DNA of 64,000 nt from Gammaproteobacteria bacterium (GTDB lineage Bacteria > Pseudomonadota > Gammaproteobacteria > GCA-001735895): contig JBNKUM010000118.1 in assembly GCA_050298595.1 (NCBI GenBank), forward strand, positions 32,001-96,000, written 5' to 3'. Position numbers and translations under genes: made by a program. Positions 51,786 to 59,025 of this stretch are shown piece after piece (positions within the stretch are counted from its first letter, which is position 1; each line of letters opens with the position of its first letter). The notes beneath the pieces are model-generated. The model was given only the letters and a program-made list of their open reading frames with translations, did not search any database and was not told where the DNA came from.

Positions 51786-51986
51786 TTAATCATGTTCTTC
51801 TATCCATGCCATCTGAATAGCTTCCAGAATTTTTTCATTTGAGCCTTCTGGGTTATCATCAAAATCATCCAGAGCACAAACCCAGCTATGTAGATCAGTA
51901 AAGCGAACATACTGGGGGTCTACATCCGCATGTGTTTGTTCCAGTTCAATCGCTATATCCAGTGTATCTATCCATTTTAAAGCCAT
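51786..51986 (-). CDS. iscX: Fe-S assembly protein IscX
   Basis: LKWIDTLDIAIEL, DPQYVRFTDLH, SNEKILEAIQMAWIEE. Confidence 0.95.
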   Translation of the reverse strand: MALKWIDTLDIAIELEQTHADVDPQYVRFTDLHSWVCALDDFDDNPEGSNEKILEAIQMAWIEEHD

Positions 51987-52182
51987 AGTTCACCTCCTCA
52001 GTATCATTAGCCTTAAATTATAAATCAGCTGTCGTAAAAACCTACTATTTTGAGACAAAATTGATGATTATGAATGTTTGATGCAGGTGCTTTATGGGAT
52101 ACTGAATCTGGGTTACTACTCTTATGCGAGTGGTCAACTGCAGAATCCAGGTTAAACTTGCTAAAAGCAAAGTAGCTGCACT

Positions 52183-52521
52183 TTAATGAGTTTCAGAAAC
52201 CATGTTGATGGTGTATTTAGGAATTTCAATAACCAGATCATTCTGATTAACCTTTGCCTGACAGCTTAAGCGGGAATCCGGTTCCAGACCCCAGGCTTTG
52301 TCCAGATAATCATCTTCATTCTCATCAGACTCTTCCAGGGTTTCAAAACCTTCTCGGATATAGACGTGGCAGGTGGTACAGGCACAGGATTTTTCACAGG
52401 CATGTTCAATTTCAATGCCATTCTGTAACAGCGCGTCACAGATACTAACACCGCTTTCGGCGTTAAACACTGCGCCATCGGGGCAAATTTCTTCATGTGG
52501 AAGTACGATAATCTGGGGCAT
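52183..52521 (-). CDS. fdx: ISC [2Fe-2S] ferredoxin
   Basis: [47 protein letters not shown]. Confidence 0.97.
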
Positions 52522-54393
52522 TTACACATCCACCTGTTCAATATTTTTTCCTGAGAGTACTTTCTGTACACTCGCATTCATACGTCGGGCCACGTACTCT
52601 TCGCTAGCCACTTCAACCTGCTTGATCGCCTTCTTCAAGCTATCGCTGGAAGCAGTTTCGATTATTCTTTCCAGCTCATCACGAACCGATTGAATCTGTT
52701 GATATTCATCATTTGATAACAGCTCATGACCATCCGATGCCAGCGCTGAATCTACTGCTTCTAACACACGTCTTGCTTCAACCTGCTGTTCAGCCAGCAT
52801 GCGCGCATCGATATCTTCTTTGGCATGCGACATAGAGTCACGCAGCATGGTCTCAATCTCATTATCCGTTAAACCATAGGAAGGTTTAATCACGATATCT
52901 GCACGCACTCCGCTACTTTTTTCTTCTGCCAATACTGATAGCAACCCATCTGCATCCACCTGATAGGTTACCCGGATACGTGCAGCCCCGGCTGTCATTG
53001 GAGGAATGCCGCGCAATTCGAAGTGGGCTAGTGAACGACAATCAGAAACCAGCTCACGCTCTCCCTGCACGACATGGAATGCCATTGCCGTCTGGCCATC
53101 CTTGAAGGTAGTAAACTCCTGTGCTCGAGCTACAGGGATAGGGCTATTCCGATCAATAATCTTTTCACTCAGTCCACCCATGGTTTCGATACACAGCGAT
53201 AATGGCAACACATCTAACAGCAACATTTCCTGGTCATTTTTATTACCTGCCAGTACATCCGCCTGTAAAGCTGCACCTATCGCCACTACCTTGTCCGGAT
53301 CAAGATCGATTAAGGGTTCGCGCTCAAAGAACTTACCCACCTGTTCAACAACCAGAGGAACCCGGGTAGATCCACCGACCATGACAACATTGGTTATTTC
53401 GCTTTTATCCAGCTTCGCATCGCGTAATACCCGGCGACAGGACATCAGGGTTTTCTTCACCAGATCCTGGATCAGACTATTCATGGTGTCGCGCGTCAGC
53501 GTTGTAGTAAAACTGAGGTTTGCGTGCTCAATCTTGATTTCAGTGGAATCATTTAAAGTCAGGTCTTCCTTGGCCTTACGTGCAGCAATCAGAATCTGAC
53601 GTGACAATATAGAATCTATCTTTTCTATACCGGCCTGTTTGATTATCCATTCACCGATATCGTTATCCATATCATCACCACCCAGAGAACTATTCCCGCC
53701 GGTGGCCAGTACTTCGAATACACCCTTATTCAAATGCAAAATGGAGATATCAAAGGTACCGCCACCCAGATCATAAATGGCAATAACACCATCGGGCTGT
53801 TGATCCAGGCCATAAGCGACCGCCGCTGCGGTTGGTTCGCCGAGCAATCGATACACATTCAATCCAGCCAGTCTGGCCGCATCACGCGTAGCCTGGCGCT
53901 GGGCATCATCGAAATAAGCAGGCACCGTAATCACAACACCGCTAAGTTCCTCACCCAATGTTTGTTCTGCACGATCAGCCAGAGATTTAAGTATTTCTGC
54001 AGATACCTCAATGGCACTCACATGCCTCTGTCGGGTAATGATACGTGGAACAGTAGAATCAGTATTGCCATCAAACTCATAGGGTAAGACATTAGAAAGG
54101 CCTTTCAGGTCTTCGATACCTCGGCCCATGATGCGTTTCACCGATGATAATGTATTCAATGGGTCGGAAGCCTGTAACAGCTGTGCTTCATACCCAACCA
54201 GAGTCTGTTCAGCGCCATAATGCACAATAGAGGGCAGCAAATGCCTGCCCGCTTCATCGGGCAGAGTTTCTATCTTGCCGCTGCGTTTTACCGCTACCAG
54301 TGAATTGGTAGTGCCAAGGTCAATACCCGCAGCATAATTACGATGGTGCGGCGCACTGGCTTGTCCAGGTTCTGTGATTTGTAGTAATGCCAT
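52522..54393 (-). CDS. hscA: Fe-S chaperone HscA (Hsp70)
   Basis: [44 protein letters not shown]. Confidence 0.97.
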
Positions 54394-54415
54394 GATTTAT
54401 TAGTGTTAACAGCCC

Positions 54416-54958
54416 CTAAAATAACTGATCTTCCAGCTCAAACTGAAAGTCGTCGAGCTGATCGAGTATACGTTGGACAAACTGCATTTTTTTGCTCACT
54501 TGACGCGCCTCTTCCAGCTTGCCCTGCTGATAGAGAGTTTCAAATTGTTCGGCATACTCTTTTGAGCGTTGGTCGAGTTTACCCGTCACATGATCGCAGC
54601 AACGCATGGGATCCTGGCAGCTTTTGCATTGATCCATCTCTTCGCGTATTTCAATCTGTTCCATCAGAAAAGCAGTATCATTGGTGGTTTCGTGCTCATC
54701 ATTCATATCCAGGCCACCGATTTCGAGCATATAGCGTGCTCTTTTCACCGAGTGATGCAGAATTTCATAAGCTTCGTTAATCCACGCTGCCTTTTGTACT
54801 GCTATACGCTTTTCCTGATCACTGCCATTTATAAAGCGATCAGGATGATAGGCTGCCTGTAATTTTTGGTGATTATCATGTAGCAGGCGCTTATCCAGTT
54901 GAAAATCAACCGGCAGGCCAAACAGCTCAAAGTAATTTTGATTCAGATCGAGTTGCAT
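54416..54958 (-). CDS. hscB: Fe-S co-chaperone HscB
   Basis: NYFELFGLPVDF, HPDRF J-motif, INEAY, RARYML, FLMEQIEIRE. ATG 54958 chosen as the start. Confidence 0.94.
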   Translation of the reverse strand: MQLDLNQNYFELFGLPVDFQLDKRLLHDNHQKLQAAYHPDRFINGSDQEKRIAVQKAAWINEAYEILHHSVKRARYMLEIGGLDMNDEHETTNDTAFLMEQIEIREEMDQCKSCQDPMRCCDHVTGKLDQRSKEYAEQFETLYQQGKLEEARQVSKKMQFVQRILDQLDDFQFELEDQLF

Positions 54959-54969
54959 ATCGGCAATAT

Positions 54970-55293
54970 TCAGACGGTAAAGCTTTCGCCGCAACCACAC
55001 TCATCCTTGGCATTAGGATTGGTGAACTTAAAGCCTTCATTAAGCCCTTCACGCGTAAAATCTACCTGAGTGCCATCGAGATAAACCAGGCTTTTCGGGT
55101 CTATAATGACCTTCACACCCTGGCTCTCAAACACCTGGTCTTCTTCGTTTAACTCGTCTACAAACTCGAGAACATAAGCCATACCTGAACAGCCCGTGGT
55201 CTTGATACCGATTCTCAAACCGATACCTGAACCTCGATTATCCAGAAAGCTCTTCACGCGTTGGGCAGCAGTTTCAGTCAAACTTATTGTCAT
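54970..55293 (-). CDS. iscA: A-type Fe-S carrier IscA
   Basis: [41 protein letters not shown]. Confidence 0.96.
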
Positions 55294-55304
55294 GTGTATC
55301 TCCT

Positions 55305-56459
55305 TCAGTTAGCTGCACGTCTAAAACTGGCAGGCACCTGATTGATTAAACTGTGTAACAAAGCAATCAGTTGATCGATTTGTTGACAGGTATTGTCATT
55401 ACCAAAACTAACCCTGACGGCATTCAGTGCCAGCGCTTCATCGACCCCCATGGCCCTGAGTACATGGCTGGGTTGAGTGACCGCACTATGACATGCTGAT
55501 CCACTGGCTAGCTCGAAACCGGCCTGATCAAGTTGCATCAGCAGGGTTTCACCGTGGTAGTAAGGAATTGAAAAGTAACTGGTATTGGGCAAACGTTCGC
55601 AGCTACCTGAAAAAATATGCACACCGCTTATGCCCATCAGTTGCTGTTCAAAATAGCGCCGCAATTCTAACAGATATGTCTGACGCTCTTGCAAATTTAT
55701 TTGTGCTAATTGCGCAGCTTTCCCCATACCCACCAGTAGTGCCACATTCTCAGTGCCAGCGCGTCGCCTGGATTCCTGTGGTCCACCACTTAGTAAAGGT
55801 TTTTTAATATTAGCCTTATGATTGAGTATTAACGCACCGCAGCCCTGTGGGCCCTGGAATTTATGTCCTGAGAGCGTTAACAGGCCTGCGTTTAGATCTT
55901 TAATATCAACCTCAATCTTGCCTACCGCCTGAGTAGCATCGGTATGCAGCAATAGATTATCTGACGAAACTTGTTCGAATAGTCGTTTTACTGGCTGAAT
56001 AGCGCCAGTTTCATTATTCGCTAGTTGCACTGATAGCAGATCAGGATTGTATTCAGCAATCACAGCGGTCGATTCTGAGACGTCTACCAATCCTTCAGCA
56101 TTCACCGCTAAATAAGCAGTGGATCCACCCATAGCCGCAATCTGCCTGACCGGTTCAAGAACACTGGCGTGTTCAATTGAGCTGCACATAATGCGACTGT
56201 TCTGGCTATCCGCAACAAAGCCTTTGATAGCTAAATTGTTTGCCTCAGTACCACCGCTAGTGAAGATAACGTTTGCAGCATCGGCATTCACCAGCTCAGC
56301 AACCTGCTGACGCGCACTCTCAATCGCTGAACGTAAAAAGCGGCCACTTTGATGCAGGCTGGAAGCATTGCCATGCGATGCCTTCAGGAAAGGTAACATA
56401 GCATCCAGCACTTCAGGGTGTAGCGGGGCTGAAGCATTATGATCAAGATACACGGGCAT
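55305..56459 (-). CDS. Group I cysteine desulfurase (IscS/NifS-like paralogue lacking the IscS C-terminal tail)
   Basis: [34 protein letters not shown] (PLP Lys), SGSACHS (catalytic Cys); 384 aa, no SPLW tail. Confidence 0.9.
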
Positions 56460-56471
56460 CGGCTTTAATAA

Positions 56472-56933
56472 TCAGGACTGGCCGGACGCCATGTAATGTG
56501 GAAAGTCCTGTTCTGTATAATCTTCGTCACTGATCTGGTTACGAATCATATCAGCCAGAGATATACCGGTCAGGTAGCTGGAAATCTGATTGCTTAATTC
56601 ATCCCACAGCTGTTCGGTGAGACAGGGCTCGTAATTATTGGCTCCTGGTAAGGCATCTTTATTAGTCACTTCAACCTTATCGTCTACCGCTAGAATGATG
56701 TCCGAGACACTCACCTGTTCTGGAGAAACACTCAATCGATACCCGCCGCCAGGGCCACGCGTACTGATAACCAGCTTATTACGCCGCATCTTGGCGAATA
56801 ACTGTTCCAGATAGGACAGGGAAATCCCCTGACGTTGAGAGATATCTGCTAAGGATACGGGTCCCTTATCCGAGTGCATAACCATATCGAGTAATGAAGT
56901 AACTGCATATCTGCTTTTGGTGGATAAACGCAT
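56472..56933 (-). CDS. iscR: IscR-family Rrf2 regulator with a degenerate cluster-binding motif
   Basis: MRLSTKSRYAVT, GPVSLADISQRQGISLSYLEQLFAK, RGPGGGY; only one Cys in the protein. Confidence 0.9.
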   Translation of the reverse strand: MRLSTKSRYAVTSLLDMVMHSDKGPVSLADISQRQGISLSYLEQLFAKMRRNKLVISTRGPGGGYRLSVSPEQVSVSDIILAVDDKVEVTNKDALPGANNYEPCLTEQLWDELSNQISSYLTGISLADMIRNQISDEDYTEQDFPHYMASGQS

Positions 56934-56965
56934 TGGTACACCTGTTGTTTGGCCGATTTCGAGTC

Positions 56966-57023
56966 AGTATACAATCCTGACTAAATTGGTCAAGTATTAA
57001 TTCCTACTATTTTAGTCGGGATT
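56966..57023 (-). promoter_or_regulatory. isc promoter with two tandem type-1 IscR boxes
   Basis: Minus strand AATCCCGACTAAAATAGTAGGAATT (57023-56999) and ATACTTGACCAATTTAGTCAGGATT (56997-56973); the latter contains -35 TTGACC, 16 nt before -10 TATACT. Confidence 0.8.
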
Positions 57024-57048
57024 AATATTGATTTCTTCAGGCTACCCA

Positions 57049-58338
57049 TCAGGCCACTGGCAATATTATCCGAACCAGGCTCCCCTCACCTAACTGACTT
57101 TGTATCAGCATTTCAGCCTGATGTGCATCGACTATCTTTTGACAAAGGTACAACCCGAGCCCAAAACCACCGGTAGCCCGCTGGCGCGCAGGGTCGGCTC
57201 GATAGAAAGCCTCGGTAGCCTGATTCAGGTCTTCTGTAGCCATACCGCAGCCATGATCTTCCACCTCTATGACGATGTTTTGCCGGTGTTGTATTAGTCT
57301 GATCTCTGGACTTACGTCTGACTCGGAAGAGTACTTGAATGCGTTATCTAACAGATTTTTCACTAAAAGCTCCAATCTAGCTCTATCAGCATTGATTGAG
57401 ATTGAAGGAAGAGAGGCTGTTATTGACCTGTCGGCAAAAAATTCATTTAACAGCTCTCTAATCATTTCATCCAGTTGAAAATCAGTTCGATTGAGCACAG
57501 CGTGCGGCCGATTCAAACGCTCCGACTCCAGTATCAATGCGAGCAGGCTTTCCATCTCGCGAATATCATCCACCAGCGCCTGGCGTGTCGCATCATCAGC
57601 CATGAGCTCAAGGTTTACTCTTGCTCGTGTTAAGGGTGATCTCAGCTCATGACTGATGGCGAGTAGCAGTTGCTGCTTGGCTTCCAGCATCGAATGTATC
57701 TGCTGTGCCATTTCATTAATGCCCTGCCCCAGGCTCTTAAATTCAATACTGCCCGTGGGTTCCAATGGTTGTAAAAGGTCCCCCTGGCCAATTCGTGCGA
57801 CAGCATCGTTGATCGGCTTTAGCGGTTTTAAGCTCTGTCGAATCAACACAAACAGAAACACAAGCGTAACAATAAAAATCACCAACATGGAAAAACCTCG
57901 TTGGTGTGATTCGCTTTTGAATAAACGGCCAACTGCGTAGAGATAGGTATAACCATCCTGTTTCAGCATCAGATAATTATTACCTCGTTCAAAGGCAAGC
58001 TGATAACGCTGGTAGGGTTCGGGTGCATTTTCGAAATCTAACTGTGAAATATCGGGTATTTTTGAATGAGATTGCCAGTTTATATCTGGACCACGTATCG
58101 AAAGCTCAAATGCTAGCCCATCACTTAAACGGCGCGCTTTATCGATATCCGGTGGGCTGCCAATATCCTGCACTATGTAGTCCAGATATTGCACAATATT
58201 TGGCAATAGATCCTGCTTAAAGTGCGCCTTGATACTATGAGCCAGATTGATACCAAACAGGGCAATTACCAGCACACCTGTTACCAGAAAATACAGCATT
58301 AAACGAGTGATCAAAGATTGCCTTAAGCGTTGCAACAT
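57049..58338 (-). CDS. HAMP-domain sensor histidine kinase
   Basis: Two TMs, HAMP, ISHELRSPL H-box, NLLDNAFKY, DHGCG, FYRAD, GGFGLGL. Confidence 0.94.
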   Translation of the reverse strand: MLQRLRQSLITRLMLYFLVTGVLVIALFGINLAHSIKAHFKQDLLPNIVQYLDYIVQDIGSPPDIDKARRLSDGLAFELSIRGPDINWQSHSKIPDISQLDFENAPEPYQRYQLAFERGNNYLMLKQDGYTYLYAVGRLFKSESHQRGFSMLVIFIVTLVFLFVLIRQSLKPLKPINDAVARIGQGDLLQPLEPTGSIEFKSLGQGINEMAQQIHSMLEAKQQLLLAISHELRSPLTRARVNLELMADDATRQALVDDIREMESLLALILESERLNRPHAVLNRTDFQLDEMIRELLNEFFADRSITASLPSISINADRARLELLVKNLLDNAFKYSSESDVSPEIRLIQHRQNIVIEVEDHGCGMATEDLNQATEAFYRADPARQRATGGFGLGLYLCQKIVDAHQAEMLIQSQLGEGSLVRIILPVA

Positions 58339-58344
58339 GTACTT

Positions 58345-59025
58345 TTACTCGCTAATAACGGGTGGTAAAACAAATTGATAACCTCTGGCACGTATGGTTT
58401 TGATTATCTGCAGCGGGTTCAGCTTTTGACGTAAACGACTGATTTGAATATCAATCGCTCGGCTAAAGATATCGGCTTCGATTCCATTTAACTCAGTCAT
58501 AATGTCATCGCGCGAAAAGACTTTTTGCGGCTGCTGCGCCAATAGCAGTAAAAGCCGGTATTCATTGGAAGTGAGATCCACAATCCCATCATCCGTTTTA
58601 ACCTGCTGGGTTTGAGTATCAATCTTTAGTCCCTCAAAAACTAACTCGTGACTGGATTTAACAATAACCGATCGCTTGAGAATATTTTTAATTCTCGCAA
58701 CCAGTTCGCGAGGTTCGAAGGGTTTTGGCAGGTAATCGTCAGCTCCAATCTCAAGACCAACTACTCTGTCCATCACATCACCTCTGGCAGTTAGCATTAA
58801 TACAGGGGTTTCAGAAAACTGGCGGATTCTTCTACAGGTTTCGAAGCCATCGATTTCCGGAAGCATAACGTCGAGAATGATTAACTCGAACGAATGCCCT
58901 CTTAACAACTCCAGAGCCTTCAGTGGATGAGTTTCGCTGGATAATTCAAAGTCAAACTGCGCCAGATACGCCTTAAGTGGTGCAGCCAGTTTTTCATCGT
59001 CATCAATCAAAAGTAGCTTTTTCAT
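58345..59025 (-). CDS. OmpR/CpxR-family response regulator
   Basis: IDDD, LDVMLP, MLTARGD, GADDYLPKPFEPREL, RAIDIQISRLRQK. Confidence 0.95.
   Translation of the reverse strand: MKKLLLIDDDEKLAAPLKAYLAQFDFELSSETHPLKALELLRGHSFELIILDVMLPEIDGFETCRRIRQFSETPVLMLTARGDVMDRVVGLEIGADDYLPKPFEPRELVARIKNILKRSVIVKSSHELVFEGLKIDTQTQQVKTDDGIVDLTSNEYRLLLLLAQQPQKVFSRDDIMTELNGIEADIFSRAIDIQISRLRQKLNPLQIIKTIRARGYQFVLPPVISE

What the first reader, a model, noticed from the sequence alone, without database searches (positions are those of the whole stretch)
56472..56933. IscR has lost three of its four [2Fe-2S] ligands
Seen: gap-free alignment of VDDKVEVTNKDALPGANNYEPCLTEQLW to E. coli [28 protein letters not shown] gives C92 to K, C98 to A, C104 kept and H107 to E. 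The DNA-binding helix SLSYLEQLF, including E43, is unchanged. Established: these four residues ligate the cluster in E. coli IscR. Inference: the regulator cannot sense Fe-S status in the canonical way and may be constitutive or sense something else through the lone Cys (persulfide, oxidation, or metal/heme with the new Glu). Its presence in an iscU-less operon suggests coordinated rewiring rather than random decay.
Basis: partly seen in the sequence, partly recalled or inferred. Interest (0 to 1): 0.72.

Follow-up and report, generated by a model that had tools for sequence, protein, structure and literature searches.

The report
Second IscR lacking cluster ligands
An uncultured marine bacterial lineage keeps two IscR regulators, a normal one and this conserved copy that has lost three of its four iron-sulfur ligands, which makes it a natural test case for how such a regulator works without its usual cluster.

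Summary
Window 56472-56933 (-) encodes a 153-aa IscR-type Rrf2 protein that aligns without gaps to E. coli IscR. It has K92, A98, C104 and E107, and an unchanged recognition helix.

It is not the cell's only IscR. The same genome has a canonical iscR (Cys3His) with iscS-iscU on another contig. The window gene ("IscR2") heads desulfurase-iscA-hscB-hscA-fdx.

The split system and IscR2 are conserved across a whole order of uncultured marine Gammaproteobacteria:
- 70 of 79 genomes have it.
- All 68 sequences share [Y/F]-E-P-C-L-T-E.
- dN/dS is 0.04-0.10, so this is not decay.

Its promoter is almost invariant and carries a type-1 IscR box over the -35.

Best reading (0.4): IscR2 is a cluster-free, one-cysteine IscR paralogue. 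Holo-IscR1 gates its synthesis, and C104 is its own sensing residue. The main rival (0.3) is non-canonical Fe-S or metal binding.

Ligand-poor IscR-like proteins are common in sequence space, and single-Cys Rrf2 regulators are published. I class this as a new variant of a known kind. The scan had already noted the same phenomenon on other DNA (e1-1377841).

The parts
56472..56933 (-). iscR2: 153-aa IscR-derived Rrf2 regulator with K92, A98, C104, E107 and one cysteine
   Evidence: ORF. Pfam Rrf2 123.5 bits. NCBIfam IscR TIGR02010 172.6 bits, below the cut-off of 207.55. Gap-free alignment to 4hf0. 50% identity to the genome's canonical IscR.
56973..56997 (-). Proximal type-1 IscR box ATACTTGACCAATTTAGTCAGGATT, overlapping the -35 hexamer
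   Evidence: Matches the consensus ATASYYGACTRWWWYAGTCRRSTAT at 22 of 25 positions (consensus quoted in PMC3899308). The core is present in 67 of 67 upstream regions of the clade.
56966..56993 (-). Sigma-70-like promoter TTGACC-16-TATACT
   Evidence: Best promoter-like match in 51900-57200, 10 of 12 positions. The 32-nt box-plus-hexamer pattern is found in 65 of 67 upstream regions, and the identical 32-mer in 41.
56999..57023 (-). Distal IscR-like box AATCCCGACTAAAATAGTAGGAATT, abutting the proximal box
   Evidence: Sequence. Scores 19 of 25 against the consensus. A distal box of at least 19 of 25 is seen in only 12 of 67 upstream regions, all from the window's genus and close relatives.
55305..56459 (-). 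Class I cysteine desulfurase (384 aa), NifS-like. Keeps the PLP lysine and catalytic Cys and lacks the C-terminal tail of IscS/NifS
   Evidence: NCBIfam NifS 375 bits and IscS 291.5 bits, both below cut-off. 34% identity to the genome's IscS and 37% to its NifS. Intact in 46, remnant in 5 and absent in 7 of the 58 related loci that reach iscA.
54970..55293 (-). iscA
   Evidence: TIGR02011 188.9 bits, above the cut-off of 150.6.
54416..55000 (-). hscB. The listed GTG start overlaps iscA. The family alignment begins at residue 22, so the real start is probably the internal ATG near 54958.
   Evidence: TIGR00714 105.5 bits, above cut-off. ORF.
52522..54393 (-). hscA
   Evidence: NF003520 944.1 bits, above cut-off.
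52183..52521 (-). ISC-type [2Fe-2S] ferredoxin (fdx)
   Evidence: TIGR02007 179.9 bits, above cut-off.

Best explanation
IscR2 is a functional, duplicated descendant of IscR. It has given up the Cys3His [2Fe-2S] site and does not hold the canonical cluster. It keeps the IscR DNA-reading head, so it still binds IscR-type operators.

It is the second tier of a two-regulator circuit. The canonical paralogue IscR1 (encoded with iscS-iscU) senses Fe-S status. In its cluster-bound form it represses the iscR2-desulfurase-iscA-hscBA-fdx operon at the invariant type-1 box over the -35. IscR2 therefore accumulates only when Fe-S supply is short.

IscR2's own input is the single invariant cysteine C104, at the N-cap of the dimerisation helix inside the fixed motif Y/F-E-P-C-L-T-E. 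I take it to be a reactive thiol (persulfide, oxidant or electrophile sensing), as in other one-cysteine Rrf2 regulators.

Shown here: the loss of ligands, the paralogy, the conservation, the purifying selection, the box and the split operon. Inferred: who binds the box, that no cluster is bound, and what C104 does.
For: Ligand loss and retained DNA head:
- Three of four ligand positions are replaced, and the segment 91-100 that holds C92/C98 in canonical IscR is variable in sequence and length across the clade.
- In E. coli even H107C gave no holo-protein in vitro (PMC5411485, passages).
- The DNA-contact residues named for E. coli IscR (S40, Y41, E43, Q44, R59; PMC11475020 passages) are invariant.

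Paralogy and conservation:
- A canonical IscR1 with iscS-iscU exists in the same genome and in 7 of 7 relatives' loci.
- IscR2-level matches occur in 70 of 79 genomes of the order. In the 5 genomes without it that I checked, hscA was also missing or cut by a contig end.
- dN/dS is 0.04-0.10.
- The IscR2 clade is monophyletic (SH-aLRT 100) with a long stem of 0.82 and short crown branches.
- C104, E102, P103 and E107 are present in 68 of 68 sequences.

Promoter and regulon:
- The 32-nt pattern is found in 65 of 67 upstream regions and is identical in 41. It contains a type-1 box.
- Type-1 boxes scoring at least 22 of 25 also lie before iscR1, erpA, grx4, a tusE/dsrC-like gene and a Sfum_1244-family gene, so a working IscR regulon exists.
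- In E. coli and Klebsiella only holo-IscR binds type-1 boxes (PMC4169559, PMC5411485).

Structure and precedent:
- The AF2 model puts C104 directly before helix 105-122.
- One-cysteine Rrf2 sensors are a published class (SifR C102, PMC9218516).
Against: - No tool here can show absence of a cofactor.
- Rhodobacter sphaeroides IscR, with a single cysteine, was reported to bind an Fe-S cluster after reconstitution (PMC4618611).
- An invariant Cys plus two invariant Glu and an aromatic residue also looks like a metal site.
- 52 of 68 clade members carry a second cysteine, C75, so the clade as a whole is not strictly monothiol.
- Binding of IscR1 to the iscR2 box is inferred from motif similarity only. 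IscR2 has the same recognition helix and could bind the box itself.
- No IscR2-specific operator was found.
- The model gives the loop 91-100 low confidence (pLDDT 59) and no coordinates were available to me.
Confidence: 0.4

Rival explanations
1. IscR2 still binds an Fe-S cluster, or a single iron or other metal ion, through non-canonical ligands. Candidates are C104, E107 and E102, possibly Y101, C75 where present, a residue of helix 1 of the other subunit, or an external thiol such as glutathione or a carrier protein. It would then be a second Fe-S or iron sensor with a different set-point, autoregulating at its own type-1 box.
For: - C104, E102, P103 and E107 are present in 68 of 68 sequences, and an aromatic residue at 101 in 68 of 68. 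That is a compact set of possible ligands.
- Clade-specific fixed changes cluster in helix 1 (S7, S13, L14, V18, M19, S21). In other Rrf2 proteins helix 1 supplies ligands to the other subunit's cluster (NsrR Asp8, PMC5411485; general statement in PMC9218516).
- R. sphaeroides single-Cys IscR was reported to bind Fe-S (PMC4618611).
- The promoter box is of type 1, which in E. coli needs the holo form. An earlier scan note on another genome read it this way (e1-1377841).
Against: - Only one thiolate per subunit in the window's genus.
- The fixed helix-1 changes are to Ser, Leu, Val and Met, not to Asp, Glu, His or Cys.
- The loop between 91 and 100 is variable.
- In E. coli, single ligand changes abolish the cluster.
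- A canonical IscR1 in the same cell can explain the type-1 box without any cluster on IscR2.
Confidence: 0.3
2. IscR2 is a permanently apo-form IscR with no sensing of its own. C104 and E107 only cap and stabilise the dimerisation helix. The signal lies entirely in how much IscR2 is made, set by IscR1 at the promoter. IscR2 carries out the jobs that apo-IscR does in E. coli at type-2-like sites. The holo and apo roles of one protein would thus be divided between two genes.
For: - E43, which blocks apo-IscR from type-1 sites, is kept.
- Engineered Cys-to-Ala IscR is a working apo regulator in Klebsiella (PMC4169559).
- iscR2 is the first gene of a type-1-boxed operon.
- The pattern C-x-x-E at a helix start fits a capping box. 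This is an inference from the DSSP and general knowledge.
Against: - A purely structural N-cap would be expected to drift to Ser, Thr or Asp somewhere in 68 sequences with saturated synonymous divergence. It never does.
- The genome has no sufB, the classic apo-IscR target.
- I found no type-2-like site. The boxes I examined do not fit the spacing of the motif AxxxCCxxAxxxxxxxTAxGGxxxT (my reading).
Confidence: 0.2
3. IscR2 is a decaying duplicate on its way to loss.
For: It scores below the NCBIfam IscR cut-offs. The neighbouring desulfurase is a remnant or absent in 12 of 58 loci.
Against: - dN/dS is 0.04-0.10, as low as for IscR1.
- The frame is intact in all 67 related loci.
- It is present in 70 of 79 genomes of an order.
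- The motif and the promoter are invariant.
Confidence: 0.02

Closest known systems
E. coli / Pseudomonas aeruginosa [2Fe-2S] IscR (PDB 4hf0, 4hf1; NCBIfam TIGR02010)
   Same: Gap-free homology over 134 residues (E 2e-39). Identical recognition helix, including E43, and identical wing. First gene of an isc operon. Type-1 box over the -35, much like P. aeruginosa site B ATAGTTGACCTAATTACTCGGATAA.
   Different: K92, A98 and E107 replace Cys, Cys and His. It scores below the family cut-off. It coexists with a canonical IscR. Its operon lacks iscS and iscU.
Engineered apo-locked IscR (C92A/C98A/C104A, 'IscR-3CA')
   Same: It cannot hold the canonical cluster. The engineered form still binds type-2 sites and regulates genes (PMC4169559 abstract and passages). 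The crystallised E. coli protein in 4hf0 is this kind of variant, with Ala at 92, 98 and 104 in the alignment.
   Different: IscR2 is natural, keeps C104, and has fixed compensating changes (Y101, E102, P103, E107 and helix 1) under purifying selection.
Rhodobacteraceae single-Cys IscR (R. sphaeroides; PMC4618611)
   Same: An IscR at the head of Fe-S biogenesis genes that lacks the three conserved cysteines and has one C-terminal cysteine.
   Different: There the cysteine (C142) is at a non-canonical position, the protein is the only IscR, it binds the Iron-Rhodo box, and it was reported to carry an Fe-S cluster (passages). Here the cysteine is the canonical C104, the boxes are of type 1, and a canonical paralogue is present.
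Monothiolate Rrf2 repressors (SifR / YwnA; PMC9218516)
   Same: Rrf2 fold with one conserved cysteine near the start of the dimerisation helix (SifR C102), acting as a thiol sensor without a cluster (passages).
   Different: SifR belongs to a separate sequence cluster of Rrf2 proteins. IscR2 is nested among gammaproteobacterial IscRs. 52 of 68 IscR2 sequences have a second cysteine. Quinone reactivity was not tested.
CymR (Bacillus / Staphylococcus)
   Same: A cluster-free Rrf2 regulator. An oxidised form of the S. aureus protein has been solved (3t8t, title). That it senses through a single cysteine is recalled, not checked here.
   Different: Only a distant match (E 2e-14; NCBIfam CymR 88.4 bits against a cut-off of 195). 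Different regulon.

Membership tests
IscR (NCBIfam TIGR02010 / NF008110 equivalogs) | Score at or above the curated family cut-off | tested here: not met
   172.6 bits against 207.55, and 157.7 against 275. It passes only the Rrf2 superfamily model (133.5 against 73.3).
IscR (NCBIfam TIGR02010 / NF008110 equivalogs) | Cys92, Cys98, Cys104 and His107 cluster ligands | tested here: not met
   K, A, C, E in the window. No Cys at 92 or 98 and Glu at 107 in 68 of 68 clade members, against C, C, C, H in 27 of 27 canonical sequences.
IscR (NCBIfam TIGR02010 / NF008110 equivalogs) | DNA-contact residues S40, Y41, E43, Q44, R59 and the GPGGG wing | tested here: met
   Invariant in the 95-sequence alignment and in both groups. 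The residue list comes from PMC11475020.
IscR (NCBIfam TIGR02010 / NF008110 equivalogs) | Heads an isc operon whose promoter carries type-1 IscR boxes | tested here: met
   The operon is iscR2-desulfurase-iscA-hscB-hscA-fdx. The box matches at 22 of 25 and overlaps the -35. However, iscS and iscU are at another locus.
IscR (NCBIfam TIGR02010 / NF008110 equivalogs) | Binds a [2Fe-2S] cluster that switches DNA specificity | not testable with these tools
   Needs anaerobic biochemistry.
Rrf2 superfamily (Pfam PF02082) | Winged-helix plus dimerisation-helix domain above the gathering score | tested here: met
   123.5 bits against 30, covering 131 of 132 profile positions. The AF2 model has mean pLDDT 82.9 with the expected helices and wing.
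Monothiolate Rrf2 (SifR/YwnA group) | A single conserved cysteine in the whole group | tested here: inconclusive
   There is one cysteine in the window's protein and C104 is in 68 of 68, but 52 of 68 also have C75.
Monothiolate Rrf2 (SifR/YwnA group) | Sequence membership in that cluster of Rrf2 proteins | tested here: not met
   IscR2 branches among canonical gammaproteobacterial IscRs, and its best solved relatives are IscR, not SifR or YwnA. The published network itself was not rebuilt.
Rhodobacteraceae single-Cys IscR | A lone cysteine at the non-canonical C-terminal position, and the Iron-Rhodo box | tested here: not met
   The cysteine here is at canonical position 104 and the boxes fit the type-1 consensus. 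The features of the Rhodobacter protein are from PMC4618611.

The most novel reading that the evidence does not exclude
IscR2 is a new kind of sensor built on the IscR scaffold. It would use a Cys-Glu-Glu (plus Tyr/Phe) site at the start of the dimerisation helix, either to hold a mononuclear iron or a labile cluster shared with a carrier, or to accept a persulfide. A whole bacterial order would then run Fe-S homeostasis with two IscRs of different chemistry, with the holo and apo jobs that E. coli packs into one protein divided between two genes.
Probability: 0.25. Interest if true: 0.7.

Novelty: new variant of a known kind. Interest (0 to 1): 0.5.

Why it matters
IscR is the textbook case of one regulator with two activities, switched by a labile cluster. 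How the cluster changes DNA specificity is still argued from mutants, because the papers I read state that no holo-IscR structure is available (PMC5411485).

This lineage offers a natural experiment:
- A canonical IscR and a ligand-poor copy have the same DNA-reading head.
- Both are under strong selection in about 70 genomes.
- The isc genes are divided between the two.

Testing which protein binds which box, and what the invariant C104/E107 motif does, would show whether the apo role can be a separate, evolvable function. It would also show whether IscR scaffolds can be re-used for thiol or metal sensing.

The finding also warns annotators that "IscR" at the head of isc genes need not be a cluster protein. 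46 of the 117 full-length nearest cluster representatives have two or fewer loop cysteines.

Tried and rejected
- Structure model. It gives the Rrf2 fold, but the loop 84-104 is coil and the block 91-100 has pLDDT 59. No coordinates reached the script box, so I could not measure C75-C104 or C104-helix-1 distances.
- Search of 1.84 billion representatives. Clusters at 50% identity do not separate IscR2 from canonical IscR. It was useful only to show that ligand-poor IscR-like proteins are frequent.
- The listing of cluster members. Source names for these proteins could therefore not be seen. I did not send search for homologous proteins.
- Type-2 sites. By eye, the boxes before iscR1 and iscR2 do not fit the spacing of AxxxCCxxAxxxxxxxTAxGGxxxT. 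No genome-wide type-2 scan was made, because nine fixed bases are expected by chance dozens of times in 5.5 Mb.
- A natural IscR2-less genome as a test. All 5 candidates lacked or truncated hscA too, so they are assembly gaps.
- RNA evidence. Contigs from two metatranscriptome libraries of one study (X11, X13) lie on parts of iscR2 at about 92-100% likeness. Such libraries can hold DNA, and contigs show no transcript start. No contig of these two runs lay on 56939-57100. None of this is used as evidence.
- Heme through a Cys-Pro motif. The protein has none (Pro-Cys only).
- CymR membership rejected (88.4 bits against a cut-off of 195).
- Complex prediction was not used. A homodimer or paralogue heterodimer would pass by likeness to solved IscR dimers.
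- Literature searches for a described IscR paralogue lacking ligands found none. "IscR2" matched only ISCR2 insertion elements.

Full report
**1.

Window 56472-56933 on the minus strand is a 153-aa open reading frame. It matches Pfam Rrf2 over 131 of 132 profile positions at 123.5 bits.

Its best solved relatives are E. coli IscR entries (4hf0, E 2e-39). The alignment of residues 1-134 has no gap. In that register the four positions that ligate the [2Fe-2S] cluster in E. coli and P. aeruginosa IscR read K, A, C, E. Those positions are C92, C98, C104 and H107, as quoted in PMC3899308 (passages).

The recognition helix SLSYLEQLF with E43, and the wing RGPGGGY, are unchanged. The protein contains a single cysteine. 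NCBIfam places it below both IscR equivalog cut-offs (172.6 against 207.55; 157.7 against 275) and above the Rrf2 superfamily cut-off.

**2. The surroundings.**

Downstream on the same strand lie five genes:
- a 384-aa class I cysteine desulfurase (NifS model 375 bits, IscS model 291.5 bits, both below cut-off)
- iscA
- hscB
- hscA
- the ISC ferredoxin

But the genome (5.49 Mb, 119 contigs, 98.6% complete) has two more Rrf2 matches. One, on contig C56, is a 160-aa IscR with C-x5-C-x5-C-x2-H. It is directly followed by a 410-aa iscS and an iscU that passes its family cut-off (221.7 bits), and then by unrelated genes.

The two regulators are 50% identical (72 of 143). I call them IscR1 (canonical) and IscR2 (the finding). 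The genome also has nifU/nifS-like genes on C85 and no sufB. The ISC system is therefore split over two operons, each with its own IscR.

**3. Conservation.**

*Distribution in the order.* The GTDB order that holds this genome has one family, four genera and 79 species genomes. By my count of the table, 70 of the 79 have a match of 69-93% identity to IscR2, and one more (G094) has a partial match. Most of them have a second match at about 50%, which is IscR1. I checked five genomes without an IscR2 match. Four also lack hscA, and in the fifth hscA is cut by a contig end. These absences are therefore assembly gaps.

*Synteny.* All 14 fetched IscR2 loci show iscR2 followed by iscA-hscB-hscA, and by fdx where the contig allows. 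All 7 IscR1 loci show iscR1-iscS-iscU.

*Sequence motifs.* A scan of one genome per species of GTDB gave 67 loci at 64-93% identity. All are uncultured, mostly marine Gammaproteobacteria MAGs, plus the Olavius algarvensis Gamma 3 endosymbiont scaffold. The next-best 13 loci, at 48-59%, all have C, C, C, H. Across the window plus these 67 sequences:
- C104, E102, P103 and E107 are invariant.
- Position 101 is Y or F.
- Q108 is present in 66 of 68.
- The segment 91-100, which holds C92 and C98 in canonical IscR, varies in sequence and length. Position 92 is K in 57, R in 10 and P in 1.
- Fixed clade-specific changes also sit in helix 1: S7, S13, L14, V18, M19 and S21.
- 52 of 68 members have a second cysteine at position 75. 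The window's genus has Ser there.

*Selection.* dN/dS against the three nearest relatives is 0.043, 0.076 and 0.104. For IscR1 in comparable pairs it is 0.057 and 0.039.

*Tree.* A quick maximum-likelihood tree of 77 sequences was built from 23 of the 68 IscR2 sequences, all 27 canonical ones and 27 cluster representatives. It makes IscR2 one clade (SH-aLRT 100) on a long stem (0.82) with short crown branches. The clade sits among canonical gammaproteobacterial IscRs. It is not sister to the family's IscR1 clade, which also has support of 100. Deeper branches are unresolved.

This is the signature of change of function followed by constraint, not of decay.

**4. The promoter.**

The 115-nt spacer upstream of iscR2 contains TTGACC-16-TATACT. 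This is the best sigma-70-like match in 51900-57200. A 25-nt box, ATACTTGACCAATTTAGTCAGGATT (56997-56973), lies over the -35. It fits the type-1 IscR consensus ATASYYGACTRWWWYAGTCRRSTAT at 22 of 25 positions (consensus as quoted in PMC3899308). It resembles P. aeruginosa site B.

The 32-nt box-plus-hexamer pattern occurs in 65 of 67 upstream regions of the clade. An identical 32-mer occurs in 41, although the flanks are unalignable. A second, abutting box is confined to 12 regions of the window's genus and its neighbours.

The iscR1 promoter has a perfect palindrome, ATTCCTGACTAAATTAGTCAGGAAT, which is conserved in the family. In the genome, boxes scoring at least 22 of 25 also precede erpA, a Grx4 monothiol glutaredoxin, a TusE/DsrC-family gene and a Sfum_1244-family gene. 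A 20 of 25 box precedes apbC. A classical IscR regulon is thus in place, and the iscR2 operon belongs to it.

In E. coli and Klebsiella only cluster-bound IscR binds type-1 boxes, and E43 keeps the apo form off them (PMC4169559, PMC5411485, PMC3899308; passages).

**5. Origin.**

Two genomes of other families in the class (G026, G035) carry iscR(CCCH)-nifS-like desulfurase-iscS-iscU-iscA-hscB-hscA, with fdx seen in G035. The window's operon is this arrangement minus iscS-iscU, and those two genes sit with IscR1 elsewhere. The iscR2 promoter also keeps the box-over-minus-35 layout seen before single iscR genes of outgroups.

The desulfurase has these properties:
- It is 34% identical to the genome's IscS and 37% to its NifS.
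- It keeps the PLP lysine and the catalytic cysteine.
- It lacks the C-terminal tail.
- It is dispensable. Of the 58 related loci that reach iscA, it is intact in 46, a remnant in 5 and absent in 7.

Three other outgroup genomes (G034, G038, G039) have a canonical IscR directly followed by iscA. An iscU-less operon therefore does not by itself go with ligand loss. A second IscR in the genome does.

**6. How it most likely works.**

The following steps are shown:
- The canonical site is gone.
- The DNA head is intact.
- The gene is constrained.
- A canonical paralogue and a type-1 regulon exist.
- iscR2 is the first gene behind an invariant type-1 box.

The following steps are inferred:
- Holo-IscR1 represses the iscR2 operon, so IscR2 and the carrier/chaperone genes rise when Fe-S supply is short.
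- IscR2 binds IscR-type operators without the canonical cluster.
- The never-substituted C104, placed by the model directly before helix 105-122, is a reactive thiol input, by analogy with the monothiolate Rrf2 sensor SifR (C102; PMC9218516).

I put this at 0.4.

The main rival (0.3) is that C104, E107 and E102 bind a non-canonical cluster or metal. This has happened before: R. sphaeroides single-Cys IscR was reported to bind Fe-S (PMC4618611), and helix 1 of the partner subunit supplies a ligand in NsrR. A purely apo-locked regulator without its own signal gets 0.2. Its weak point is the absolute invariance of a cysteine. Decay gets 0.02.

**7. Novelty.**

Loss of IscR ligands as such is not rare. 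I took the 150 nearest 50%-identity cluster representatives. 117 of them are full length. Of these 117, 71 have three or four cysteines in the loop, 37 have none, 8 have one (6 of them at position 104) and 1 has two. Single-Cys and cluster-free Rrf2 regulators are published.

I did not find any description of a constrained, ligand-poor IscR paralogue beside a canonical IscR in a split isc system. This rests on searches of PubMed Central and bioRxiv full texts. Supplements were not consulted, and subscription journals are not covered.

Earlier notes of this scan describe the same phenomenon on another genome (e1-1377841). That note read it as self-repression by a changed mechanism. A different clade with an iscU-only operon under a cysteine-less IscR paralogue is noted in e1-1151747. 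I rate the finding a new variant of a known kind, with interest 0.5.

Noticed in passing
window 55305-56459; L078, L080, L095, L122, L130 (remnants); L086, L090, L103, L108, L109, L117, L118 (absent): The desulfurase between iscR2 and iscA is being lost repeatedly within the clade. Of 58 loci it is intact in 46, a remnant in 5 and absent in 7, while iscR2-iscA linkage is kept in all 58.
   Followed up: partly
L152 (G026) and L153 (G035): Outgroup genomes carry an eight-gene operon, iscR-nifS-like desulfurase-iscS-iscU-iscA-hscB-hscA-fdx, with a canonical IscR. A second desulfurase between iscR and iscS is therefore older than the split seen in the window.
   Followed up: partly
L149 (G039), L150 (G038), L151 (G034): A canonical Cys3His iscR is directly followed by iscA, without iscS or iscU next to it. 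In L150 only weak SufS/SufU-like matches lie further on.
   Followed up: no
own genome: C90:5490, C8:177139, C72:18026, C53:10867, C86:7180: Type-1 IscR boxes (20-23 of 25) lie before erpA, a Grx4 glutaredoxin, a TusE/DsrC-family gene, a Sfum_1244-family gene of unknown function, and apbC (divergent from metG).
   Followed up: partly
alignment position 75 of IscR2 (window residue S75): 52 of 68 clade members have a cysteine at position 75, just before helix 76-83. The window's genus has serine. Whether C75 and C104 can meet is unknown.
   Followed up: no
window 57049-59025 (-): A histidine kinase and response regulator pair lies directly upstream of iscR2 on the same strand. The kinase is syntenic in most related loci (41-85% identity).
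   Followed up: no
L086, L090, L122: Record titles name Polaribacter, Acidimicrobiia and Urechidicola for contigs that carry this gammaproteobacterial iscR2 operon at 74-77% identity. These are probably mis-binned contigs or mislabelled MAGs.
   Followed up: no
window 54416-55000 (-): The listed GTG start of hscB overlaps iscA by 31 bases. The HscB family alignment begins at residue 22, so an internal ATG near 54958 is the likelier start.
   Followed up: no
own genome C85:235979-236335 (-) and C85:278873-280863: There is a third, weak Rrf2 match (35.5 bits) inside a 436-aa open frame. NifS- and NifU-like genes lie about 43 kb away on the same contig. No sufB was found in the genome.
   Followed up: no
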